From contig OZ024742.1 in assembly GCA_964016885.1 (NCBI GenBank), forward strand, positions 306,156,001 to 306,220,000: a stretch of DNA of 64,000 bases, written 5' to 3'. The translations under genes and the position numbers were made by a program. Position 1 is the stretch's first letter. Every line of letters starts with the position of its first letter. Below the pieces are notes generated by a model that was not told the DNA's origin, made no database searches, and saw only the letters and a list, made by a program, of their open reading frames with translations. Below, piece by piece: positions 14,938 to 64,000 of the stretch. The stretch is from Eledone cirrhosa (Eukaryota).

Positions 14938-15160
14938 ATTTATAGTAAGTACAACGAACTTTTATTAATTTATTTTAAAACTTTTTCTCTATTTGCTAGA
15001 CCTTGATTTTACATGTTCTAGCTTGTTAATTTATTAACCCGCCATAGAACCACATTGGCATACGGTAGGATAATACTTGTTTTCCTATATGTATTTTTTA
15101 CACGTAGGAATTCATACTTTATTATATATATATATATATATATATATATTAATAAGTTAA

Positions 15161-15211
15161 AGTTTAAGCAAATAATCAATGCTTTCAACCTTAACGGGAT
15201 CTTCTGAAACT
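15161..15211 (-). ncRNA. Hammerhead variant with CAGAAGA (U4A) core
   Basis: agttt-CAGAAGA-tcccgttaaggtt-GAAA-gca ttgattatt tgc-TT-aaact. A homolog lies at 63352-63402, and a perfect 64-bp palindrome follows at 15214-15277. Confidence 0.6.
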
Positions 15212-15403
15212 AAGTTCTTATAATAAATATTTGCTCTACGAATTATAATTCGTAGAGCAAATATTTATTATAAGAACGCAAATAATTATTTGAGTTCCGA
15301 TGAATCACTGATTTTTCGTTTTCCATTCCATAATACTCTGCTCCATAGGAGCATAGAGTACTCAACCGGTATACCGCCTATGGAACCATCTTAGCTACCA
15401 TTA

Positions 15404-20115: not shown

Positions 20116-22380
20116 GCGCCATTGTAGTAAGATAATACAGGTTGTACATATAGATATAGAGGATGGAATAGATGGAATGGTAACACGTGGTACCTAATGT
20201 AAAGTTCGGGTCTCCAAAAATGTTTCTGAGGTATAGAGTAGATAATTCAGTCAATACAATACATGTTTTAGTATAATACGTAGAGTTTTGTCGGAATCGG
20301 AATAATGCCGACAAGGAAGTAGTATCAGGTGGCGGTAGATAAAGCACAGAGCAGCCAAATCCAAATGGTAAGTAGATCAGTTAATCCCATGCTGGCAATA
20401 GCGGTACACTGAAGTCAGTGCCGCTGTTCAATATTACATTTGGAAGTACTCAACATTATTGGAGCATTATTTCTTTAGGCTTGTTGGTTCACCAGTGGAT
20501 AGAACTGGTCATTCCGTATAGTCAATCTTGGTGTAATATTGTGGAGAGTACTCAACGTAGTGCAGTTCATCCGTCTTCGTTTGTGTAGTTGGTGGTGCGA
20601 ATACGGAGTTAATTATAAATAAAATAAAATAACAGGAGGCCGGACTGGTGTAAATCCTTGAAAGTTACTTTAGAACGGAACTGCCTGTTAAACTAATCGC
20701 CCCCTCTAAATCTGTTCTGGGGGTTGTTAGTAAATCCATCTTGGATAGAATTATCCCACAGGTTCGTTCTAATTGCTCTATTTCTAACTTAAATTTATGG
20801 ATGGGTACATCTGATGTAATTCACTGGTTCAATGACCTGAATAATAAAAACAACAAAAATTTATTCAGTTTGACATTGCCAGTTACTATTCTTCTATTTC
20901 GCCTTCACTCCTCAACAACGCTCTCTCTTTTATATTTAAATATTCTGACATTACCACAGATGAACTTTACATCATTCTCACCGCAAGAAAAACTATCCTG
21001 AAATTCAACAACGAATATTGAACTAGAGTTGATACTTCCAACAATTTCGATATCACAATGGGTTCGCCGGATTCAGCGCAATTGACGGACTTGATTGGAA
21101 TCTTTATTTTGAATTCTTTAAATCGAAAACTTCCTCAACTTCGCGGTTGAATGTATCGTGACGATGCTCTTTTTACTGTCTTAAACTGTAACTTAGTTAA
21201 CCTCAATATTATTAAGAATAATATACTTGATCTATTTAAGCACCAGAACATAAAAATTTAATTTGAAAACAACGTGAAACTAGCTAACTTCCTGGATATA
21301 TCCCTTAATCTTGACACCGGCCTATATTACCCTTACCATAAAGACAATGAGAATCTAAATTATGTTAATTTTAAATCTAATCACCCTATTAACGTTAAAA
21401 ATGCTATAGTCAGTAATGTTGAAAAAAGAATCTCAAATCTATCTTCTAATAAAGTTATCTTTGACGCTAAAGCCAATTATTACAATAATGCGATTTCCAG
21501 AGCCGGTTATCCTGACAAAATTAAATACAGTAAAGAAACCAATCATCGAGGGACTTATGGTAATATAGTTAGTTATAAGCATTCCAATAACGCAAAGAAA
21601 AGACCTAGATATAAAAATATGATTTGGTACAACGCTCCTGTTTCTCTATCTATTATTAGTAATATTCCTAAACTATTTTTTAGGGCCTTAGATAAATGCT
21701 TCCCTCCCTCGCATATTTATAGTAAGATCTTTAATAAACATACAATTAAATTCTCTTATTCCACCACTTCCAACATCTCTAACATTATCTCTAAACATAA
21801 TAATAAAATATTATAAAAGTAATAAAGTATATCCATCCAACACTGCGCGTCATAATAATAGCAATAGTAAACCCGACGTCAATCTTAACTCTAGGCTAGA
21901 TTCCATAAATTTAAATACGGCGTCAAACGTAACTTTGTCGAATGTTCATAATACCAATCTAAATCAGGAAACTTTAGCACCTATCGTAAATAACTTCTCC
22001 AATTCAATTCCTTCTATTAATAATACTGGGTCACTCTGGTAATTTCTCTAATCGTAATTGCAATTGCCCTGTTAGAACTAAATGTCCTCTTAGTAACCAA
22101 TGTCTTGATAAAAATTTAGTGTATGAATGTAAGGTTATAACTGATACTAATTATTTTACCTATTTTGGGTCCACTTCCATTTCCTTTAAAGCAAGATTTT
22201 ATAATCACAATTCTTCTTTTAAATACCGACTTAAAAGAACTAACACGGCACTCTCAGAACTCATATGGTCCTTAAAGGACAAACATATTAACTACAATAT
22301 TTCTTGGAGGAAGGTTTGCAGCGCCTCTCCTTACCTGAATTCTTCCCTATCCAGAACATGTAATCTCTGCCTAGCGGAGA

Positions 22381-22860
22381 AATTTACCATTATCTCTAAT
22401 TTTAATTCTATAATAAATAGTCGTACGGATTTATATTCGCTCTGCTTGCATAAATCCCATAGAACTTTTCATAAAGTATACAGCTAATATCTTACTACCT
22501 AATTAGTTTAAAATCTTCTTTTCTCAAACGCTTTTATATTTTTTACAAATATACCCATCCGTCTACCTTATTTCAGTATATTATAAAATATTACTGATAC
22601 TATATCGTTAGCGGTCCCCTTAATTTACCATTATCTCTAATTTTAATTCTATAATAAATAGACGTACGGATTTATTTTCGCTCTGCTTGCATAAATCTCA
22701 TGGAACTTTCCATAAAGTATACAGCTAATATCTTACTACCTAATTAGTTTAAAATCTTCTTTTGTCAAACGCTTTTATATTTTTTACAAATATACCTATC
22801 TTTCTACCTTATTTCAGTATATTATACAATATTACTCATACTATGTCGTTAGCGGTCCCC
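22381..22860 (+). repeat. About 240-bp tandem duplication spanning the endonuclease stop and start of the 3' UTR
   Basis: aatttaccattatctctaatt..gttagcggtcccct occurs at 22381-22621 and again at 22622-22861. Confidence 0.9.
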
Positions 22861-23641
22861 TATTTTTCTTCTTTTTTCTTCTTTTTTTAATTTCTAATCT
22901 TTAATCTGCAACTTTTACTTCTCAATTACTTCTTAATTCATATTATAACTCACTATAGCATTTTCCTTATATTCTCGGCCATACTAATATTACCATTAGT
23001 GAAATTTTGTAAACATATATTCTTTGGACGTTATATATTTTTTCTTCCTTGAATTTCTTCTTTCTTCTCTCCTTCCGTGCTCGTATTAAACCTATTATTT
23101 ACTTTTTCCTTTTACAATACATAGAAACAAACTTGGAACCTAATTAATTCCTCTAAGTTCATAATTATTTAACCTTATCTTCATTCACCTTATCTTCTTA
23201 ATATATTTTATTTTAATAATACATTTTAATAAATTCCTTTTCGCACTTATTATTAAACCCTTCAATATTCTTAATTCCCTTTTTCTTTAATCATAAACCT
23301 CATTAACTTTTATTTCTAAATTTTTTTCAAATTATGTATTATCTTACAACGGTTTTTTTTAATTTCTCTCTGTGAGACAATGTTTCTCAGTATTAAAGGT
23401 TATCTCTCTCTCTCACTCATTTTCTCCTCCTCTCTCATCCTTCCTTTTCCTCCTCCGTCATCCTTTCTTTATTATTATTTTTTTTTATTATTATATTCTT
23501 TCTTCCTCTTCCTTACCTTTTCCTTCCCCCCTTCCTTTCCTTTTTTCCCAATCTCATATATCCATCTTATTTTATTTTTCATATGTTGATTTAACACTTC
23601 ACTGCTCACAAGTGTTTTTTAAGCTTCATATCATGTCTCCC

Positions 23642-23712
23642 TATTTTATCTGATGAGAACGCAAATATCATCCCATGATGATATTTGTTTTTGAAATGTG
23701 CATAATAAAATA
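23642..23712 (+). ncRNA. Type I hammerhead ribozyme in PLE 3' UTR
   Basis: tattttat-CTGATGA-gaacgcaaatatcatc ccat gatgatatttgttttt-GAAA-tgtgca-TA-ataaaata. Confidence 0.9.
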
Positions 23713-23836
23713 CATGGCACTCTTTTAACCATCTTTTGATCTTATATTATTTATACTCCACTCCTATAAACTGTTGAGTGCTACTTATCCGATATTTGAA
23801 TTGTTTTATTGTGCTACAATAAAACTCACCTCCTAC

Positions 23837-23879
<43 letters not shown>

Positions 23880-23889
23880 AACAAGTAAG

Positions 23890-23983
23890 ACCCCGACGGC
23901 TGAGCTCAACCCGTTTCGACGGCTAATTCTGTACTGAATGAAAATTTATTCTGGTATTTAAATAGCCGAGCTTATCAAGGGGT
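23890..23983 (-). ncRNA. Type I hammerhead with U3-A8 covariant core (left arm)
   Basis: acccc-TTGATAA-gctcggcta..tagccgtc-GAAA-cgggttgagctcagccg-TC-ggggt. Confidence 0.8.
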
Positions 23984-25627
23984 AATTCCATATATGGTCA
24001 AAGAGATAATCACCAGGATTGGTCACATCACAAGTTAGTAGTAAATCTGTGATGGCAAATTGGTGGGGGAAGGGGTAGCTAAACCTGCCGGTAGGAGAAA
24101 AAGGGAGAGGGGGTGGAGTAGATCCATTCATGCGTTGGTAGTGCCAGCTATAGCTGGGCGTGAGGTCAAAGAGGATACTGGGGAGGGGGAGGGGGAGGAG
24201 GTCGAAACGGTAAGTAGAACAATGAGGGTAAAACTATAAAAGGTACTGAGAGAGAAAAAAAAAAAAAAGCAAAGTCTGGTTACTAAGACTAAAGTCTCTC
24301 GCTATTACTAAGCTAAAGAAATACATAAATAAATAAATAAACAAATAAGTGAATAAAAGAATAGTTAAATAAATTTGAAAAAAAAAAAAATATATATATA
24401 TAATAAAAAAAAAAATATATATATAATGAAGAATAAAAAAATAAATAATAATAATAAAAATAAACTAGGTGGGACGGAAATAAAGGGACCCTTATACGAG
24501 GTATAAGTGCGTGTATCGTACGGTGACGGGTCAACAAAGGGGGGGGGGGGGGGCAAAATACTAAAGAGACTACCACGAAATAATAAAGGTTTCTACCCCA
24601 ATCACAGGGCCAGCAACCACCCAGTGCAAGAAAGTAAACTAGTACGAGAATATCATTCAGGGTCCCGCCAAAAAATACTAGTGCCAACTCTAAGGGTACG
24701 GCCACGAAACAAAAAGTCTTATACAAGCTACATGAAAGATCGTACGAAGTAAAAGTAAAGAACGGAAAATAAATACAGGAACTGGTTACTGCATGTAAAC
24801 ACCGATTATGTAGGACTTACCTCGCCCTCAAACCCCATAATGACCCGGGGGGTTAGACTAGGGCTATAACACCCGACTTGCCTATTTTGTAATGAGTAAC
24901 CCCTGCTTGCCAATGGAGACGTAAGATCTTCTTTTACATTCTTTTATCGCTTCCTCTATATTTCCTCCTTCCCCCCATCCCTCCCTAGTCCTTCTACCCC
25001 AGTTCCTTTTCTTTGTCGTCGTCTTTTTCTCGCCCACCCGAGGTAGCCCATCGGTCCCTTGTAGCTTCAGCACCCCCACCCCCCTCCCCTATTCTATGAT
25101 AGATTTGGCTGACTCCAGAGGTGTTAGACTTCTGATACTCGCCCCCTTCTCCGACCGCTGTCCCTTTTTTCCGTGCCTTCTATATTTCTTAGTGGCATCT
25201 TTGCTTTAATTTCTCGTTTATCCAGTATTTCTTTCTTCTTTTTCCCCTTTTTTTTTTGGGGGGGGGGGGGTGTTCTTGTATTAATTTTCCGTTCTTTACT
25301 TTTACTTCGTACGATCTTTCATGTAACTTATATAAGACTTTTTGTTTCGTGGCGGTACCCTTAGAGTTAGCACTAGTATTTTTTGGCGGGACCCTGAATT
25401 ATATTCTCGTACTAGTTTACTTTCTTGCACTGGGTGGTTGCTGGCCCTGTGATTGGGGTAGAAACCTTTATTATTTCGTGGTAGTCTCTTTAGTATTTTG
25501 CCCCCCCCCCCTTGTTGACCCGTCACCGTACGATACACGCACTTATACCTCGTATAAGGGTCCCTTTATTTCCGTCCCACCTAGTTTATTTTTATTATTA
25601 TTATTTATTTTTTTAATCTTCATTATA

Positions 25628-25661
<34 letters not shown>

Positions 25662-26060
25662 TTTTAAATTTATTTATCTATTCTTTTATTCACTTATTTG
25701 TTTATTTATTTATTTATGTATTTCTTTAGCCTAGCAAAAGCGAGAGGCTTAAGTCTTAGTAACCAGACTTTGCTTATTTTTTTTTTTTTCTCTCTCAGTA
25801 CCTTTTATCGTTTTACCCTCATTGTTCTACTTACCGTTTCGACCTCCTCCCCCTCCCCCTCCCCAGTATCCTCTTTGACCTCACGCCCAGCTGTAGCTGG
25901 CACTACCAACGCATGAATGGGTCTACTCCACCCCCTCTCCCCTTTTCTCCTACCGGCAGGTTTAGCTACCCCTTCCCCCACCAATTTGCAATCACAGATT
26001 TACTACTAACTTGTGATGTGACCAATCCTGGTAATTTTCTGTTTGACCATATATGGAATT

Positions 26061-26154
26061 ACCCCTTGATAAGCTCGGCTATTTAAATACCAGAATAAAT
26101 TTTCATTCAGTACAGAATTAGCCGTCGAAACGGCTTGAGCTCAGCCGTCGGGGT
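26061..26154 (+). ncRNA. Type I hammerhead with U3-A8 covariant core (right arm)
   Basis: acccc-TTGATAA-gctcggcta..(54 nt)..tagccgtc-GAAA-cggct tgagctc agccg-TC-ggggt. All three stems pair and the cleavage site is GUC. Confidence 0.85.
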
Positions 26155-26245
26155 CTTACATGTTCCTATTACCCACTCTACTACCCTAAGTATTGAGTAC
26201 TATGGTGCGTTATGGCCCACCTGGTTCCTTACCACATTTCCTTCG

Positions 26246-26291
<46 letters not shown>

Positions 26292-26715
26292 CGAAGGAAA
26301 ATGTGTTTCTACGATCCGCAAGTATAAAAAAAACATTATCCATGGTGTAATCCAAGGGGTCAGGAATCTAAATAGTATATGAGGGAACGGTAACCAAGCA
26401 TAGATAATGTGTAGTAATTGAACCAAATATAACCAAATAGTAAGTTTCCTCAGATATTTCAACTCACTTCTCTCAATCCAGAATCTCGATATTTTAACGG
26501 TTCATATAGTCTTAGATTTTTTTTCAGATTATTTTCTGACACTGTAATCTTCCTGACACTGGAATCTTACTAAAAGAAAAAAAAAATTTCTTCATCCCAA
26601 TCAATGGATCGTTCTTCGACTGTGGAAACGTACGTAGAACGAATAAAATGTTATAAATTCTCCCTAATGTCTGGGTTTAATTATTACTTATATGTAAATA
26701 TATATATATATATAT

Positions 26716-27014
26716 ATAACTAAGGAAATGTGGTAAGGAACCAGGTGGACCATAACGCACAAAAGTACTCAATACTTAGGGTAGTAGAGTAGGTAATAGG
26801 AACGAGAAGGACCCCGACGGCTGAGCTCAAGCCGTTTCGACGGCTAATTCTGGACTAAAATACCGTCTAGAATTAGCCGTCCAGAATTAGCCGTCGAAAC
26901 GGCTTGAGCTCAGCTCTCGGGGTCCTACTCGTTCCTATTACCCACTCTACTACCCTAAGTATTGAGTCCTTTGGTGTGTTATGGTCCACCTGGTTCCTTA
27001 CCACATTTCCTTCG

Positions 27015-27017
<3 letters not shown>
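26716..27017. mobile_element. Short fold-back copy of the same family's 3' end (two HHR right halves)
   Basis: Both arms start at ccagaattagccgtcGAAAcggcttgagctcagc and run out to the ccacatttcctt(c/a)gtta-(TA)n end. Confidence 0.85.
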
Positions 27018-27102
<85 letters not shown>

Positions 27103-37350: not shown

Positions 37351-38610
37351 CTGAAGACCTCAATACTTAGACATTTGTAAATCTATAAACTTTATAGTAC
37401 CTGTGTAAATATATAAGATTTATATGGCCAGTGTATTATACATATGGCATGTCTAAATCTGTATAATTCCTATGACTTGTGTGAATCTATATAACTTATA
37501 GAAACATATCATGTGTTACATTTGAGATCACTTTGAGTGTGATGGTAAAAATGAGAGGTTTCTGCTATGCAAGGTAATGCGGATTACCTAATTTTCTTTT
37601 GTCTGTTCGCACCCAGATGTAGATTGGTGTAAAATATTTATAGACGGAACGATAGATTTTGTATATTTTGGGTTTCCTAATCTTATATTAAATCTCATGA
37701 AATTCCGATTGATTAGTGTTAACTACTGTTGCATATCTCATCTAAATGTTGCTATTTCTATGGGTATATTAAAATGAATAATACTTTAATTATTCTTTTT
37801 TTTTAGGGGGGGGGGGGGGGGGGGGGGGGGCTTCAGCAAAACCTATTTGCCTCTAAATTTCCAAGTAACAGTTAGCAAAATTAATTTAGAGAGTCTTATA
37901 CGTGAACGGGGTTAGATCAGTCATGCGGTCATGTTTTAGCGATTAATCCTAATCACTCATAAAAAGTTAATTAATATCTTATCCATTAATTAAGCTTTTG
38001 CCAAATTATGATTTTACCCAAGTACTCACATAGTATATAAAATTAAGTCGATGAATTTCACTTGAAAATTTACACATGATCTGTAACCAGAGTCTAAGTT
38101 ATTGGATATCTAAAGCAAATATATCATTTAAAGTTAATACAATATAGTTTAACCATATTAATTTAAATATTTTCGTACAATCTTTTGAATTAAATTATTT
38201 CATTAAAGACACTCCTAATTATAAGCAATACGCCTATGCCTTCGATGGTTTCAAGAAAGTAAGGTTTAATACTAGGTGTAATGCACTGGCGTTTACAAAA
38301 ACGATATACTATCAAATTCAAATAAAAGATCTATTTTCAAGCAATGAGTAATACTTACTTTCGTTTCATTTATTATAATATTGAAAGAAATATATATACG
38401 TCGCATTCCAATTATAGATTTATTATTCTACGCACACATTTTTTTAAATAGCATTGTCGTTAAACAGGGGTTACTCCTCATACAAAGAGATTATATCATG
38501 AAGGAAATATTTCTAGAAATGTCAAACAAATGCTAAAATGATGATAGTCATTTCTCTTATTATTAGCAACAAATTATCATTGAATATTCATTACAAGCTG
38601 TTTAACAAAA

Positions 38611-38763
38611 TGTGATCTTATCAGCTTAATATCTGATACGGCCCTTATATAAGACCATCGATATTAAACGGATTTTTAGAACGATGTGAAGAGATAGGGA
38701 CTTGCTCTGTCCTTGCCATGGGTTGGCCTGGTAATGCAGTACTTCTAGGATTCAGCCCATCCC
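38611..38763 (+). pseudogene. U2: 5'-truncated U2 snRNA copy (lacks the first about 38 nt, including the branch-point recognition sequence)
   Basis: tcttatcagcttaatatctgatacg (stem IIa), Sm site ggatttttag, stem III loop cttgctc, and stem-loop IV cctggtaatgcagtacttctagga. Confidence 0.9.
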
Positions 38764-38928
38764 CCACCCGTTAGATAAAATTAATTTAAAAAAAAGCATA
38801 CACAATATTTAACTATATTTGCAGCATATAGCAATGTCACCGAAGTTTCGTTCATATAAAGTGTCCTTAATATTGGAATTTCTTAAAACCGATATATGAC
38901 CCTCAATGTGTATATATATTTTATGCTC

Positions 38929-49422: not shown

Positions 49423-50073
49423 CGCATATATATATATGTATGCATCTATATATATATGTATATATGTATGTATGGTATGAACATCTTGATAAATCGCAAA
49501 TAGTCTGGCAGTTCCCTACAACCCTTATCCCGAGATACGCATTAAGAGCAGTCATCAGTAGAACGGCTAAACATAGCTTTAAGGTAAAATTTCAGTTTTA
49601 CCGTTGATCACTGATGACAGCACTCAACAGGAGGTGTAGAGTAGGGAACTACTCGAGTAATTGTTTCACATCTATACTATTAAATCATGCAATGTTTGTA
49701 TTACATATATTCATGTAAATGTGTATTGATGAAGCTAAAATGTAGATTGCAAGAACATATAAATATATCGTAGTTTTCCACATATGCATGGCCACATTCA
49801 CATACACACATTCATGTACATGTAAATAGATTATATTATGTATGCGACATTTACAGAGTGCAAGCGTGTATAAATGCTTCTCTATATGTGTATATTTCAT
49901 ACACTACCTACAATAAATCATCATTCGTTTATCTACGCATGCACCTATGCGTATTTACATAAACATACGAACTTACCTATCTGTAGTTCTTCACACTCTC
50001 TCTCTTTATATATACATGCATAAATAAATATATAAATGTACATGTATGTGTGTTTAATATATGTTTATGTATA

Positions 50074-50106
<33 letters not shown>

Positions 50107-50109
<3 letters not shown>

Positions 50110-50255
50110 ACGAAGGAAGTGTGGTAAGGAACCAGATGGACCATAACGCACCAGAGTACTCAATACTTAGGGTAGTAGAGTGGGTATTAGGAACATGTTT
50201 AACCCAGTCCAGAAATAGCCGTCTAAACGGGTTGAGCTCTGCCGACGTGGTTAAA
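50107..50255 (-). mobile_element. 3' fragment of the U3-A8 HHR family
   Basis: taacgaaggaagtgtggtaaggaaccag..gtactcaatacttagggtagtagagtgggta, with an inverted HHR right-half remnant. Confidence 0.8.
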
Positions 50256-50508
50256 TATTTTCCTATATATATATATATATATATTAATATACATACAGGG
50301 TGCCCCCTAAAAGTGTATACACCCCTTAGCAGCATTGTAACAAATATATGTATACACTTTTGGGGATGGCCATGCTGCCAATAAAACACACTCACCATTG
50401 AATTTCAGTTCAAGTTATTATTATTCGTTCAGTAACTAATGTTTCTGTTTTACACCATCTTGTCTTTATGAGCAGTTTACCTATCTGTGTGTACGTGAAT
50501 GAAAGAGT

Positions 50509-56502: not shown

Positions 56503-56694
56503 TAAATCTACCAAAAGTTTACGGTAGTGTCCAATCCGTATGAAGAACTCAATGTAATCCGGATATCATGAAAGGAGAAGATGCATTCAAAAACTACTTT
56601 CGGTGAAAAATAAACGGAAAACAGAGTCAAGATAAATTATTAAAAAAATAATGAATAAACAAAGAAACAGTTCCTTAAATTAAACAAAAAAAGT

Positions 56695-56836
56695 TCATTA
56701 TTTTACGATCGTTTCTAGGATATATATGTGTTAGAATTGGTATGCATATTCTATAGATCTATGTACAATATTTATACAAACTATCAGAGAGAATATACAT
56801 ACCTTCACATATATATGCTGTCTTCAGAAATAATGA
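56695..56836 (-). ncRNA. Type I hammerhead, 105-nt stem II (inverted pLTR copy)
   Basis: Reverse complement of 63025-63166. Confidence 0.88.
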
Positions 56837-57549
56837 TACTTGTTTATTGATAAGAACAAAGATTCAATACAATAGGTCTGTTTGGGAACAGGTTTTGAAT
56901 TGACCAATCAGGAGATAGTGAGGGTCAAGATAGATACCATTATGAGAACCTTAAATTATGGGTAGGGGAAGTAGATTTCAGTTTTGGAAGGAAAAGAGTA
57001 TTATGAATGAAGGATTACTTTAGGGAAGAAGTAGGTCATATGTTGACCTCAGAAATAATTTTAATTGTTCAATGAATAAAACCAACAAAGATCCAATATA
57101 ATAATGGATTACTTTAGGGAAGAAGAAGGTCATATGTTGACCTCAGATATAAATTTATTTGTTCATTGACTAAAACCAACAAAGACCAAATATATTATGT
57201 CTGTTAATATTTGGCCAAATGGTAAAATAGTAGTAATTGAAACTTATTTTAGGGGTGAAATTAGGTCAGGTGGTCAGTAGAAGGTATACAAGCAGTTGCT
57301 GTTATAAAATAGTGATGCCAATACAAATATCTAAGGTGACCAGAGTTTTAAGATAAGGATGTTAGTGAAAAAAATACATCTATGAAAAGGATACAAAATT
57401 AATTTAATTGATGGGTACATATATATATATATATATATTTTTTGATACAATTATACTAATACATATAGATGTGATAAATAAGAGTTAGATGCAGTTTAAA
57501 GGTGCTGTTAAGGATGAGGGGAGATTAAAAGAATATAAAAATATAAAAA

Positions 57550-57584
<35 letters not shown>

Positions 57585-57629
57585 CATATATATACCTACA
57601 TATATATACACATACATACACACACTCAT

Positions 57630-57674
<45 letters not shown>

Positions 57675-58404
57675 CATACACATACACACACAAACATATA
57701 CCCATACATATATATATACATACATATATACACACATACACATGTACATATACATACACACACACACACATACAGACATACATATATATACATACACACA
57801 TATACACTCACACACATATACACATATATATATATATATATATATATATCTACACATACATATATATGTATTTTTTACACTCTCATACATACACACATAC
57901 ATACATACACACTTATATATACACACACATCCACGCTTACATATACATATAATTATTGGGGGGGGGGGGAATAAATTAATTTCTAAAGTGTATATTAATT
58001 AGGTTTATATTTTAATGTTTTTCTCAGTTTATGATTACACGATATTTTGTATTTCATCTGTAGTAGAATTTTAATTATAGGTTAACTAAATTTAAATTAT
58101 TGGTTAACTAAATTAAAATTAATCTATATATTAATTTCTAAAGTGTATATTAATTAGGTTTATAATATTTAAATGTTTTTCTCCGTTTACATTACATTGA
58201 GTTCTTCATACGGATTGGACACTACCGTAAACTTTTGGTAGATTTATCTACATACTTTGCTCCTATTTGCACGGAGATATTCTTATTTTTGTATTGTATG
58301 TGTATGTAAATTTATATATATATATATATACATATATATGTATGGCTTTATAACTCCATATACAAATAGTTGAGCTCTTTTTCTTGTCCATTATCCATAT
58401 CACA

Positions 58405-60858
58405 ATGGAAAAACAATACTTGGGAACTTCTCTAAAGAATATACCATTACCTTCTAAGGATGATTTCTTACTTCTTATGATACAAAAAACCAACCAATTT
58501 ATCAGAAGAGTCAGATGGAGAGCCTACCACTTCGATAAAAAATCAAAATGTACAGATAGGAAATATCTGTATGATTTCACTACATATAAAAATCCACCAC
58601 ACAACTCTCTACTTGAAAACTTTGAGAAAGACCTTTTTAATTTAATCAAACACCTCAAATTTAAGAGGTATAAATCTAACTTTCAAAAGGACCTTGATTC
58701 TACCCTATTGGACCTAAAAAAATCTAAAAAAATCCATGTCCACTCGGACAAAACTGGAAACCTATATCACATGGATATTGAAAATTACAATGAGTTCATA
58801 TATAAAGAACTCAGGAAAAATTATAGAAAAACAAATAATGCGTCACTTACCAACATCAACAACAAAACACACAGCATAGTGAATAGACTTAATATTGAAG
58901 ATAGAACTGAACCTTTGGCATTAAAAAGACCACACTTCAACCTGAAAGATCATAAATCAAACTTTAACTCTAATCCTTCTATAAGACTTATATGCCCTTC
59001 CAAATTTGATATTGGAATAATTAGTAAAAAATTTTTAGATAGAGTCATCCCACAAATAAGAAAACATGTTAATTTACCACTCTGGGAAAACATATCCCAG
59101 GTAATTAACTGGTTTAATAATATTAGATATAAATCCTCTGCTTCATTTCTACAATTTGATATAGATAATTACTATTCTTCTATATCACCTATACTCCTGA
59201 ACAAAGCCTTGATATTTGCTAAAAATAGATCTAACTTAACTTTGGATGACATTAATATTACTACACATGCTAGACTAACACTACTGGAATTTCAGAATGA
59301 ATACTGGACCAGAAACACATATAGTAATCTATTTGATATTACTATGGGCTCAAGCGATTCTGCCCAAATTACTGATCTTGTGGGCCTCTTCCTTCTTTTT
59401 AACATAAATGCTTCCTTTCCCCACCTTAAAGGTGGTTTATATCGTGACGACTGTCTTCTTCTTTCCAATAACCTTAGCCTCTCAGAGATAGAAAAAAACA
59501 AAAAGCTTATTAGAACTTTCCTTAAAGACTATTATAGTCTAGATATTACATTTGAAAACACAAGTAAAGTCGTTAATTTCCTAGATATAACATTAGACTT
59601 ATCTACGGGTATCTACCAACCTTACCATAAACCCAACCAAAATTTACACTACATACACTCACAATCTAATCACCCTAAATCTATCCTTAAAAACCTTGCA
59701 TATAATATATCACTTAGAATTTCTAACCTTTCGTCTAACCAAGATGTATTTGATAAAAATTCGACCTTTTATAACGAAGCTCTAGCTAGAAGTGGCCACA
59801 AAAATAGATTAGAATATATACCTTCTACCAATAACACTACAAACATACAACCTAATATTACCAACAAACACCAAATGAAACGTACACACCTAAATGCCAC
59901 TCACACTATACCCCAAAATACCAACATAAAACCAAATTTCTCTAACTCCTCTAATATACAGTATAGTAACTCTCAAAAAACTACTAATCCTACAACTCTA
60001 ATAAATGTTAATAATAAAACTCCTAATAAACAAGCTAAAACACCTAAATCAATAAATCTAACTAAAAATGTGTGTGGAGAGGTCATTAACAATAATTCTC
60101 CTAGTAAACATCAGGATGCATCCTATAAAAAAAATAAACAACATAGAAACCGTAATAGACGAGTTACTTGGTATAATGCTCCATTTAATTTACAAGTTAA
60201 GGATAATATACCTAAAAAATTCTTTAATATCCTAGAGAAAAACTTCCCGCCAAACCACAAATACCATCAAATCTTAAGTAGATCAACAGTTAAATTCTCC
60301 TACTCAACAACCAAAAACATAAAACAAAATATAAGTGCCTATAATGCATATAAATGTAAAAAAAACCATAAGTATACCACCAGTACATCAAACTAGCCAT
60401 AATATCTCCTCAAATACAGGATTCACGAAAAGTTGTAACTGTAGAAACAGGCAAACTGTCCATTAAAAGGAAATTGCCTTGTTAATAACATAATATATAA
60501 ATGTAAAGTTAACACTAAGGACTCTAGTTGTTCATATATAGGAGCTACCAGCAACAATTTTAAGGTAAGATTTAATACCCACAAACATAGTTTTAAAAAT
60601 GCCGCACTAGCTAATACAACATCTCTAGCTGAAAAAATTAATAGTTATAGAAAGAGGAATATAGAATATGACATGACCTGGAGTGTGCTCAAAAGAGCCA
60701 CCCCTTATCAAAATAGTAGAAATGAATGTAGATTGTGTTCCCAAGAACTTTTCGAAATAATGAAATCTAAGGATATCCTATTAAATAAGCGACAGGAATT
60801 AATAATATCGTGTAATCATAAACTGAGAAAAACATTTAAATATTATAAACCTAATTAA
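58405..60858 (+). CDS. Penelope-like RT-GIY-YIG polyprotein (two compensating 1-nt frameshifts at about 60360 and 60452)
   Basis: SLKNIP N-terminus, DKTGN, FLQFDIDNYYSSI, TMGSSDSAQITDLVG, GLYRDD, NFLDITL, SNHP. The +1 frame gives KSCNCRNR, then the original frame gives NCPLKGNCL..IIY..YIGATSNNFKVRFNTH..CRLCSQE..LLNKRQE..CNH. Confidence 0.93.
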
Positions 60859-61780
60859 TTTACATTTTAGAAATTAATATATAGATTAATTTTAATTTAG
60901 TTAACCTATAATTTTAATTTAGTTAACCTATAATTAAAATTCTACTACAGATGAAATACAAAATATCGTGTAATCATAAACTGAGAAAAACATTTAAATA
61001 TTATAAACCTAATTAATATACACTTTAGAAATTAATATATAGATTAATTTTAATTTAGTTAACCTATAATTAAAATTCTACTACAGATGAAATACAACAA
61101 AATATCGTTTAATCATAAACGGAGAAAAATATTTAAATATTATAAACCTACTTAATATACACTTTAGAAATTAATATATAGATTAATTTTAATTTAGTTA
61201 ACCTATAATTAAAATTCTACTACAGATGAAATACAAAATATCGTGTAATCATAAACTGAGAAAAACATTTAAATATAAACCTAATTAATATACACTTTAG
61301 AAATTAATATATAGATTAATTTTAATTTAGTTAACCTATAATTAAAATTCTACTACAGATGAAATACAAAATTCTGCTTTAAATATTATAAACCTATTTA
61401 ATATACACTATAGAAATTAATATATAAACTATTTTTAATTTAGTTAACCTATAATTAGTATTCTACTACCGATGAACTACATAATTTGGCTTTCCTTCTT
61501 ACAAATATCATTTCCTAAAACTGATACCATTAAGTAAACATATGTAATTATTTTTAATTTAGTTAAGCTATAATTAATATTCTACTACTGTTTAACTACA
61601 TAATTCCGCTTTAAATATTATAAACCTAATTATTATACACCTTAGAAATTGATATATAAACTATTTTTATTTTAGTTAACCTATAATTAATATTCTACTA
61701 ATGATGAACTACATAATTTGGCTTTCCTTCTTACAAATATCATTTCCTAAAACTGATACCATTAAGTAAACATATATGAA
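60804..61780 (+). repeat. Tandem array of about 135-bp units starting inside the endonuclease C-terminus
   Basis: aatatcgtgtaatcataaactgagaaaaacatttaaatattataaacc occurs at about 60804, 60962, 61101 and 61238, followed by diverged units. Confidence 0.9.
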
Positions 61781-62158
61781 GCTTTAACTTCAGGTTATGA
61801 CTATGTTCCTTGAAACCTATATATATTTACTATTTCCCACTAATAAATGTATTCCCCCCCCCCCAATAATTATATGTATATGTAAGCGTTGATGTGTGTG
61901 TATATATAAGTGTGTATGTATGTATGTGTGTATGTATGAGAGTGTAAAAATACATATATATGTATGTGTAGATATATATATATATATATATATGTGTATA
62001 TGTGTGTGAGTGTATATGTGTGTATGTATATATATATGTATGTCTGTATGTGTGTGTGTGTGTATGTATATGTACATGTGTATGTGTGTATATATGTATG
62101 TATATATATATATGTATGGGTATATGTTTGTGTGTGTATGTGTATGTATGTGTATATA

Positions 62159-62225
<67 letters not shown>

Positions 62226-63024
62226 GTGTGTGTGTATGTGTGTGTGTATGTATGTGTATATATATGTAGGTATATATATGTATGTATGTATATATATATA
62301 TATATATATATCATTTTTATATTTTTATATTCTTTTAATGTCCCCTCATCCTTAACAGCCCTTTTAAACTGCATCTAACTCTTATTTATCACATCTATAT
62401 GTATTAGTATAATTTTATCAAAAAAAAAATATATATATATATGTACCCATCAATTAAATTAATTTTGTATCCTTTTCATAGATGTATTTTTTTCACTAAC
62501 ATCCTTATCTTAAAACTCTGGTCACCCTAGATATTTGTATTGGCATCACTATTTTATAACAGCAACTGCTTGTATACCTTCTACTGACCACCTGACCTAA
62601 TTTCACCCCTAAAATAAGTTTCAATTACTACTATTTTACCATTTGGCCAAATATTAACAGACAGAATATATTTGGTCTTTGTTGGTTTTAGTCAATGAAC
62701 AAATAAATTTATATCTGAGGTCAACATATGACCTACTTCTTCCCTAAAGTAATCCATTATTATATTGGATCTTTGTTGGTTTTATTCATTGAACAATTAA
62801 AATTATTTCTGAGGTCAACATATGACCTACTTCTTCCCTAAAGTAATCCTTCATTCATAATACTCTTTTCCTTCCAAAACTGAAATCTACTTCCCCTACC
62901 TATAATTTAAGGTTCTCATAATGGTATCTATCTTGACCCTCACTATCTCCTGATTGGTCAATTCAAAACCTGTTCCCAAACCGACCTATTGTATTGAATC
63001 TTTGTTCTTATCAATAAACAAGTA

Positions 63025-63166
63025 TCATTATTTCTGAAGACAGCATATATATGTGAAGGTATGTATATTCTCTCTGATAGTTTGTATAAATATTGTACAT
63101 AGATCTATAGAATATGCATACCAATTCTAACACATATATATCCTAGAAACGATCGTAAAATAATGA
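63025..63166 (+). ncRNA. Type I hammerhead, 105-nt stem II, in PLE 3' UTR
   Basis: tcattattt-CTGAAGA-cagcatatatatgtg..ggtatgtatattct..agaatatgcatacc..cacatatatatccta-GAAA-cgatcg-TA-aaataatga. It has a 9-bp stem I and a palindromic stem III. Confidence 0.9.
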
Positions 63167-63351
63167 ACTTTTTTGTTTAATATAAGGAACTGCTTCTTTG
63201 TTTATTCATTATTTTTTTAATATTTTAAATATATATATATATATATAGTAATAATAATAAATTTGAAGACTAAAATCCAAAGAGGGCTCGATAAGGATAA
63301 ATATATATCAAATATATAAGAACCGTAGAGCAAATATTTATTAGAATAACA

Positions 63352-63402
63352 TATTAAAGCAAAGGATCGCTGCTTTCACCCTTAACGGGATCTTCTGAAA
63401 CT
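63352..63402 (-). ncRNA. Hammerhead variant with CAGAAGA core (homolog of 15161-15211)
   Basis: agttt-CAGAAGA-tccc gttaa gggt-GAAA-gca gcgatcctt tgc-TT-taata. Stem I is weak in this copy. Confidence 0.5.
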
Positions 63403-63826
63403 AACAAAGTCAATTGGTGAACGCAGAAGTGAATATTTCAAAAAACGTTGCAACCGGAGGAAGACAGGAAGACGATATTTGGTTCGTGGAAACGTTCCCT
63501 GGCAAAGAACGGGAAAAAGCGAATATAAGACGTCATTATTTGGAGCGGTGAAAAACAATTACACGCAAAAACAAAACCACGTTTATGGTATAAAAGAAGT
63601 TGTAGACTAATATTCCTATTAGGTGGTTCATAGAGACGTTCTCTGGCAACGAACGGAAAAAACGAAGATAATACGTCATATGTGCAGCGGGAAGAACAAA
63701 TGCACGCAAAGACAAAACCAAGTTCATCTACCCTACCTTCCACAAAATGCCATGATAGAATCATGTGTTTCAACAACAAACTTTTGACCAATCGTTGTGA
63801 TAATCACTTTTACCATATATGGAATT

Positions 63827-63922
63827 ACTCCGTGAGAAGTTCGGCTATTCATTTACCAGAATAAAAATGTTCATTTACTCCAGAATTAGCCATCGAAACG
63901 GCTTGAGCTCAGCCGTCGGGGT
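63827..63922 (+). ncRNA. Diverged copy of the A8 hammerhead family
   Basis: actcc-GTGAGAA-gttcggcta..tagccatc-GAAA-cggcttgagctcagccg-TC-ggggt. Confidence 0.65.
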
Positions 63923-64000
63923 CCTACTCGTTCCTATTACCCACTCTACTACCCTAAGTATTGAGTACTTTGGTGCGTTATGGTCCATCTGGTTCCTTAC

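What the first reader, a model, noticed from the sequence alone, without database searches (positions are those of the whole stretch)
23877..26250. Abundant family with a compensatory U3-A8 hammerhead core
Seen: UUGAUAA replaces CUGAUGA in both arms, with perfect stem I (acccc/ggggt), 5-bp stem III plus a GAGCTC loop, a GUC site and a 54-nt stem II. The diverged copy at 63827 also keeps A8 but has G3. Established: C3-G8 is a tertiary Watson-Crick pair, and U3-A8 is a rare but functional substitution. At least four loci of this family occur in the window, mostly with the same 3' end in (TA)n, and about 1.4 kb upstream has no ORF. Standard CUGANGA searches would miss it.
Basis: partly seen in the sequence, partly recalled or inferred. 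Interest (0 to 1): 0.8.

Follow-up and report, generated by a model that had tools for sequence, protein, structure and literature searches.

The report
Jumping-gene hammerhead with drifting core pair
This is a back-to-back pair of truncated copies of an abundant jumping gene whose tail carries a hammerhead-shaped RNA motif with a U-A core pair already known from such elements; older copies carry a mismatched C-A pair instead, so self-cutting, untested here, is likely weak or not strictly needed for spreading.

Summary
The motif is real: a type I hammerhead (26061-26154 and, inverted, 23890-23983) with U3-A8. It lies in the 3' pseudo-LTR of an autonomous Hydra-clade Penelope-like retrotransposon. 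Other genomic copies carry the RT plus GIY-YIG ORF, and the right arm starts with its last ~25 codons. The locus is a head-to-head pair of 5'-truncated copies in (TA)n.

U3-A8 cores in Penelope hammerheads are in print (2014), and this scan noted them before in other genomes.

'Compensatory' is only partly right. Of 4,906 exact-pattern copies, 3,616 are U3-A8, 1,204 are mismatched C3.A8 and 36 have G8 (4 C3-G8). C3.A8 marks whole subfamilies. Two trees give a ladder from old U3.G8/U3-A8 through C3.A8 to young U3-A8, so the window's U3 likely restored pairing after a mismatched phase that kept transposing. The rest of the core and the stems stay conserved. A second Hydra family here likely gained U3-A8 independently. 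Most copies are truncated inside loop II and lack the core box.

Cleavage is untested. Verdict: a known kind of element with a modestly interesting natural series of 3:8 states.

The parts
23877..24782 (-). Left arm: inverted, 5'-truncated copy (about 905 nt of 3' UTR/pLTR) ending at the short 3' end in (TA)n
   Evidence: Self-BLAST 23875-24782 vs 26169-25272, 94.9%; 30 substitutions in 893 aligned bases between the arms
23890..23983 (-). Type I hammerhead motif, U3-A8 core, stem III broken by one G.G mismatch
24779..26250 (+). Right arm: 5'-truncated copy (ORF tip, about 1.2 kb of 3' UTR, hammerhead, tail) ending at the long 3' end in (TA)n
   Evidence: Colinear with genomic copies over 24779-26260 at 90-95%; those copies continue into the RT-EN ORF
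24776..24856 (+). Last ~25 codons and stop of the RT-GIY-YIG ORF (element sequence starts at 24779)
   Evidence: tblastn 24776-24853, 92% over 26 aa, E 6e-10; translation
26061..26154 (+). Type I hammerhead motif: stem I 26061-65/26150-54, U3 26066, A8 26071, stem II 26073-26126, GAAA 26127-30, stem III 26131-35/26143-47, predicted cut after C17 26149
   Evidence: All drawn pairs are standard; constrained fold -24.1 vs unconstrained minimum -24.9 kcal/mol
26170..26250 (+). Optional ~80-nt tail between the two 3' ends; in full-length copies it leads on into the ORF
   Evidence: of 23 head-to-head pairs 16 have one short and one tailed end
26689..27059 (.). Second head-to-head pair of very short copies, truncated in loop II, no 5' core box
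50028..50295 (-). Short copy of the older stem III type with an inverted partner, no 5' core box
63738..64000 (+). Older copy with G3.A8 and G7; by eye its flanks resemble the C3.A8 subfamilies, so G3 is likely a private change (this copy was not placed in a tree)
   Evidence: compared

Best explanation
The stretch is a head-to-head pair of 5'-truncated copies of a Hydra-clade Penelope-like retrotransposon, each ending in a type I hammerhead motif with a U3-A8 core that likely cuts weakly or only with help and is likely not required for insertion.

SHOWN: the family encodes an RT with a C-terminal GIY-YIG nuclease, sits in (TA)n, has two 3' ends about 80 nt apart, and keeps the hammerhead stems and core while positions 3, 7 and 8 change between subfamilies.

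INFERRED from the in vitro Poseidon work (PMC11167929): the protein nicks both strands of AT-rich DNA and starts reverse transcription at either of two internal RNA sites downstream of the ribozyme on uncut RNA. That would give one short and one tailed arm.

INFERRED from trees and copy ages: the lineage went from U3.G8/U3-A8 to C3.A8 and back to U3-A8. The window's U3 is then a pair-restoring change after a mismatched phase that still made more than 1,200 copies, which means selection on the 3:8 pair is weak, not absolute.
For: ORF: 576 aa open in L031, with RT and EN motifs read in L031, L033 and L035; 1,604 homologues at E<=1e-20. Hydra signs as defined in PMC8557442 section 11. Layout: upstream direct pLTR plus inverted truncated copy in L033 and L035. 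Counts: 3,616 U3-A8, 1,204 C3.A8 and 36 G8 of 4,906. pLTR tree without columns 3 and 8: the 107 young copies (101 U3-A8, 4 U3.G8, 2 C3.A8) are one side of a branch, SH-aLRT 95; median end branches fall from 0.058/0.045 (old U3) through 0.029/0.036/0.026 (C3 groups) to 0.021-0.007 (young U3). An independent ORF tree of 34 rows gives the same ladder, with the young U3 clade 100/100 inside the C3.A8 grade. Columns that differ among 9 subfamily majorities: 3 of 44 in stems and core (all three keep or gain pairing) vs 79 of 154 in flanks and loop II, Fisher p 2e-8. In PMC11167929, 3/8 mutants abolish cleavage but not insertion. In PMC9901934 only the G:C swap rescued the 3:8 pair.
Against: No cleavage data for any variant. 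The root is not fixed: the only outgroup is a long branch (0.8) that attaches among the C3.A8 rows. The order among the old U3.G8, old U3-A8 and C3.A8 groups therefore rests on end-branch lengths, which depend on sampling (the window's subfamily was oversampled by similarity; three old ORF rows have overlapping lengths). The conservation test is biased because copies were extracted with patterns that require most of the core and stems. The strong conservation of the other 10 core positions argues for real selection on a catalytic fold, which sits uneasily with 'dispensable'. The sense strand folds only modestly better than shuffles (z -1.56, antisense -3.78), and the hammerhead fold is about 2% of the predicted ensemble. 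Pfam gave no hit for the ORF, so the domain calls rest on motifs and by-eye comparison with the published Hydra alignment.
Confidence: 0.72

Rival explanations
1. The ribozyme is active and needed, and every subfamily state is a working pair: U-A Watson-Crick, U.G wobble and a protonated C.A wobble of similar shape. Selection keeps pyrimidine-3/purine-8 geometry rather than Watson-Crick pairing.
For: All large subfamilies are pyrimidine-3/purine-8; the other core positions are nearly invariant (89-94 of 94); stem III is long enough for a monomer and also self-complementary (duplex -30.7 vs hairpin -7.1 kcal/mol). Tolerance of core changes depends on the surrounding elements (review PMC2920678). 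The shape likeness of C.A+ and U.G is recalled knowledge, from no call.
Against: In a saturation mutagenesis all single and double mutants of this region other than the G:C swap had low activity (PMC9901934 passage). Core mutants did not affect insertion in vitro for a Poseidon element. A small G3.A8 offshoot exists (2 copies, 98-100 support).
Confidence: 0.17
2. The motif is catalytically dead in all subfamilies and is kept only as a folded handle for the element's protein or for the start and stop of reverse transcription.
For: Most copies are cut inside loop II: 1 of 30 stem-III-anchored copies holds the 5' core box, and contig depth rises about 20- to 30-fold across 26100-26130 in both runs laid (a rough measure). 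The 3:8 pair changed three times along the backbone of the tree.
Against: U4, A6, A9, A13 and A15.1 are 94 of 94. N7, the one free core position, changes between subfamilies as expected of a catalytic core. The youngest and largest subfamilies regained a Watson-Crick pair.
Confidence: 0.09
3. A non-autonomous retrozyme or SINE-like repeat without its own RT.
For: No long ORF in the right arm (longest ATG-started frame 66 aa).
Against: The arm begins with the ORF's last codons and colinear genomic copies carry the RT-EN ORF. The copies are dispersed and inverted, not tandem monomers.
Confidence: 0.02

Closest known systems
Hydra clade of C-terminal-endonuclease Penelope-like elements (Craig et al. 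2021, PMC8557442)
   Same: Single ORF with RT then GIY-YIG; DKT, RWK-like and CxCX5C motifs; CxxC and CxH near the EN end; (TA)n targets; hammerhead near the 3' end; inverted truncated partner and optional tail.
   Different: All 26 Hydra hammerhead rows of their File S2 have C3-G8 (found with a canonical descriptor) and short stems II and III. This family has A8, a 54-nt stem II domain, a 4-5 bp stem III and a 3' UTR of 0.6-1.2 kb, making it about 3.6 kb against the '<3 kb' they give.
U3-A8 minimal hammerheads of Cercyon Penelope-like elements (Cervera and De la Pena 2014, PMC4209133)
   Same: Same core swap, in pLTRs of Penelope-like elements, more than a thousand genomic hits, palindromic loop III, G10.1-C11.1.
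   Different: Those are minimal motifs needing dimers, in another PLE family. Here stem III could close as a monomer, and mismatched C3.A8 and wobble U3.G8 subfamilies are resolved in a time series, which the sections read do not describe.
Poseidon element of Anolis, studied in vitro (Frangieh et al. 2024, PMC11167929)
   Same: Two reverse-transcription start sites that explain an optional tail, AT-rich targets, both strands cut and extended, hammerhead upstream of the start sites.
   Different: Canonical C3-G8 core; the ORF starts inside the ribozyme; different clade. Its tail is defined in vitro, here only from genomic ends.

Membership tests
Penelope-like elements (EN+) | Single ORF with RT and GIY-YIG endonuclease | tested here: met
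   RT (YRDDGL) and GIY-YIG-like motifs read in one frame in L031, L033, L035; Pfam scan itself gave no hit
Penelope-like elements (EN+) | Direct pLTR by partial tandem, inverted 5'-truncated partner, optional tail | tested here: met
   L033 and L035 layout; 23 head-to-head pairs among 94 copies, 16 with one short and one tailed end
Hydra clade | C-terminal EN, DKT motif, RWK motif, CxCX5C linker, CxxC and CxH, no CCHH | tested here: met
   SDKTG, LRWRT (RWR for RWK), CNCPDRSSC, CNLC, CKH read against the definition; absence of CCHH judged by eye
Hydra clade | Insertion into (TA)n | tested here: met
   Both arms end in (TA)n; short ends of 41 of 94 copies run into (TA)n
Hydra clade | Grouping with named Hydra proteins in an RT tree | tested here: inconclusive
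   The published Hydra proteins were compared by eye only; the tree holds unnamed homologues
Hydra clade | Canonical C3-G8 hammerhead | tested here: not met
   4 of 4,906 copies are C3-G8. The paper reports this as an observation, not as the clade's definition
Type I hammerhead ribozyme | Three stems around a YUGANRA / GAAA / UH core with open stem I | tested here: met
Type I hammerhead ribozyme | Watson-Crick pair between positions 3 and 8 | tested here: inconclusive
   Met in the window's arms and 3,616 copies; not met in 1,204 C3.A8 and 32 U3.G8 copies
Type I hammerhead ribozyme | Self-cleavage after position 17 | not testable with these tools
   needs an in vitro assay or RNA end mapping
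Non-LTR retrozyme | Non-coding tandem monomers, each with a type I hammerhead | tested here: not met
   coding, dispersed, inverted copies

The most novel reading that the evidence does not exclude
One retrotransposon lineage preserves, copy by copy, a hammerhead core pair walking through U.G, U-A, C.A and back to U-A while it kept transposing, and the natural C3.A8 ribozyme is active through a protonated or protein-assisted wobble. That would be a new natural core state and a ready-made test of whether Penelope elements need their ribozyme.
Probability: 0.2. Interest if true: 0.6.

Novelty: new variant of a known kind. Interest (0 to 1): 0.35.

Why it matters
What hammerheads do in Penelope-like elements is open: one in vitro study found cleavage unnecessary for insertion, and some clades lack the motif. 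This family offers natural, dated variants of the 3:8 pair (U-A, C.A, U.G) with hundreds to thousands of copies for the two main states, so activity can be compared directly with past transposition success. It also shows that core-constrained searches undercount hammerheads in Hydra-clade elements. The U3-A8 swap itself is not new.

Tried and rejected
Rfam scan: no hammerhead family among the 150 rows shown of 252. Pfam and solved-structure search (best E 0.27) gave nothing useful for the ORF.

RNA runs: no RNA holder listed. The two runs laid are contigs of unrecorded kind and show nothing on expression.

A C3-G8 source subfamily was sought with relaxed patterns. The 6 C3-G8 rows in the tree need 6 separate changes, so they are scattered mutations. 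An alternative register giving a canonical core was considered and dropped, because G10.1-C11.1 fixes the register in all subfamilies. Rooting with the nearest sister family (58% identical) is unreliable.

Rows dropped before the trees: one search kept 227 of 257 copies and dropped 60 young ones; one search left out 8 rows with non-homologous flanks; one search used 34 of 46 ORF hits (those reaching the ORF end with a linked core, plus one outgroup).

Papers not held: Przybilski and Hammann 2007 and Lunse et al. 2017. The latter surveys Penelope hammerhead variants and may already describe mismatched 3:8 cores. Searches for C3U/G8A and C3-G8/U3-A8 listed no paper on natural C3.A8 subfamilies, which is weak evidence of absence. 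The supplements of PMC4209133 were not opened and may list further core variants.

Full report
Observation. The right arm holds a complete type I hammerhead drawing at 26061-26154, with core TTGATAA at 26066-26072, and every drawn pair is standard. The left arm holds its inverted copy at 23890-23983 with one G.G mismatch in stem III. The arms differ at 30 of 893 aligned bases. Stem III with its loop is self-complementary (duplex -30.7 vs hairpin -7.1 kcal/mol). The hammerhead fold lies 0.8 kcal/mol above the predicted minimum and is about 2% of the ensemble; the sense strand has z -1.56 against shuffles. Rfam lists no hammerhead among the 150 rows shown of 252.

What the element is. The window lies in a 3.0-Gb assembly where a 231-nt query has 3,576 first-look candidates. 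[quoted passage not shown] L033 and L035 carry an upstream direct repeat with the hammerhead and an inverted truncated partner. The window's right arm begins with the last codons of that ORF (24776-24853, 92%), so the ORF-free 1.4 kb is its 3' UTR. The protein has the DKT, RWK-like, CxCX5C, CxxC and CxH signs that define the Hydra clade (section 11 of PMC8557442) and matches its published alignment by eye.

The two ends. Among 94 copies recovered around the first 100 of 5,327 matches to an upstream flank motif, 41 end at the short end, 40 run into the tail and 13 were unclassified. There are 23 head-to-head pairs: 16 with one end of each kind, 2 tail-tail and 5 with an unclassified end. This fits the two internal reverse-transcription starts and two-strand cutting shown in vitro for a Poseidon element (PMC11167929, parts 1-2 of 4 read). 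The transfer of that mechanism to this family is inference.

The 3:8 pair. Exact-pattern counts in the genome: 4,906 in all, U3-A8 3,616, C3.A8 1,204, any G8 36, of which 4 are C3-G8 and 32 U3.G8; 50 others. In the 94 flank-anchored copies A8 is 94 of 94 and position 3 is U 67, C 23, G 2, A 1, gap 1; the other core positions are 89-94 of 94, except N7. C3.A8 travels with its own flank signatures, so it was copied as such.

The ladder. Trees of the pLTR end built without columns 3 and 8 form a ladder: a 19-row U3.G8 clade, old U3-A8, three C3.A8 groups with a 2-copy G3.A8 offshoot, and young U3-A8. The 107 young rows are one side of a branch (SH-aLRT 95), and median end branches shrink along the ladder from 0.058 to 0.007. 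A tree of ORF DNA from 34 rows, independent of the ribozyme, repeats the ladder with the young clade at 100/100 inside the C3.A8 grade; the ORF-to-core distance grows from about 0.65 to 1.2 kb along it. The outgroup is too distant to root the old end, but it does not fall in the young clade. So the window's U3 likely came from C3 on an A8 background and restored a pair, after a mismatched phase that was still productive.

Selection on the fold. Among nine subfamily majorities, 3 of 44 stem or core columns vary (two G-C to G.U, one U.U to U-A) against 79 of 154 flank and loop II columns (p 2e-8). The extraction patterns bias this test in favour of conservation.

Neighbours. A second Hydra-type family in the genome (1,441 matches) has a minimal hammerhead with U3-A8 in 14 of 16 copies read. 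In an RT tree it groups (SH-aLRT 99) with families whose hammerheads are C3-G8, two of them in this window (23650 and about 63034), not with the family studied. U3-A8 therefore likely arose twice here. An older stem III motif of the studied family has 11,400 matches. Only 1 of 30 copies read holds the 5' core box, and in 28 of 30 the likeness to a full copy stops within 12 nt upstream of the motif. Contig depth in two runs rises about 20- to 30-fold at the same place. Most copies thus cannot form the ribozyme.

Comparison with print. U3-A8 in Penelope hammerheads: PMC4209133, parts 1-2 of 4 read, about 1,300 hits in one genome, low in vitro activity of the minimal motifs. Natural U3-A8 and a citation of in vitro activity: passages of PMC3088659. 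Only the G:C swap rescued this pair in a saturation study: passages of PMC9901934. Hydra hammerheads are C3-G8 in 26 of 26 rows of File S2 of PMC8557442 (passages, section 11 and parts of the supplement seen). Also seen: part 1 of 5 of bioRxiv 10.64898/2026.07.22.740005, passages of PMC6765202 and part 1 of 2 of PMC2920678. Two key papers were not held. The scan's earlier notes report U3-A8 Penelope hammerheads in other genomes; they agree but are not independent support.

Verdict. A real hammerhead motif in a Hydra-clade Penelope-like element. The U3-A8 core is known. The resolved series of 3:8 states, with more than 1,200 mismatched copies, is the part worth a test. Interest 0.35.

Noticed in passing
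window 20660-23840: Another Hydra-type element (ORF relics 20660-22469, about 40% identical) with a canonical C3-G8 hammerhead at 23650; the U3-A8 pair is inserted in the (TA)n run at its 3' end.
   Followed up: partly
window 56633-63227: Third Hydra-type element, ORF 58825-60852, head-to-head arms, C3-G8 hammerheads at about 56827 (-) and 63034 (+) with a stem II domain of about 100 nt; ~137-nt tandem repeats at 60804-61775.
   Followed up: partly
L031 4397-5700; L293-L307: Second Hydra family with a minimal U3-A8 hammerhead (14 of 16 copies; 1,441 genomic matches), likely an independent origin of the swap.
   Followed up: partly
window 26689-27059, 50028-50295; L203-L232: Sharp 5' truncation hotspot in loop II of the hammerhead: thousands of 65-150 nt copies, often as small inverted pairs; cause unexplained, possibly a reverse-transcription stop at the folded RNA.
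   Followed up: partly
window 2434 (-), 4994 (+), 27406 (-), 47368 (-): Further canonical C3-G8 minimal hammerhead-like motifs from other repeat families.
   Followed up: no
L036 about 2500-2440 (-); window 63334-63404 and 15142-15213: The nearest sister family (56% protein identity) ends in a degenerate hammerhead-like remnant without a clear stem I, read by eye.
   Followed up: no
window 38586-38765 (+): U2 snRNA match, 79 bits, with a damaged 5' part; probably a pseudogene.
   Followed up: no
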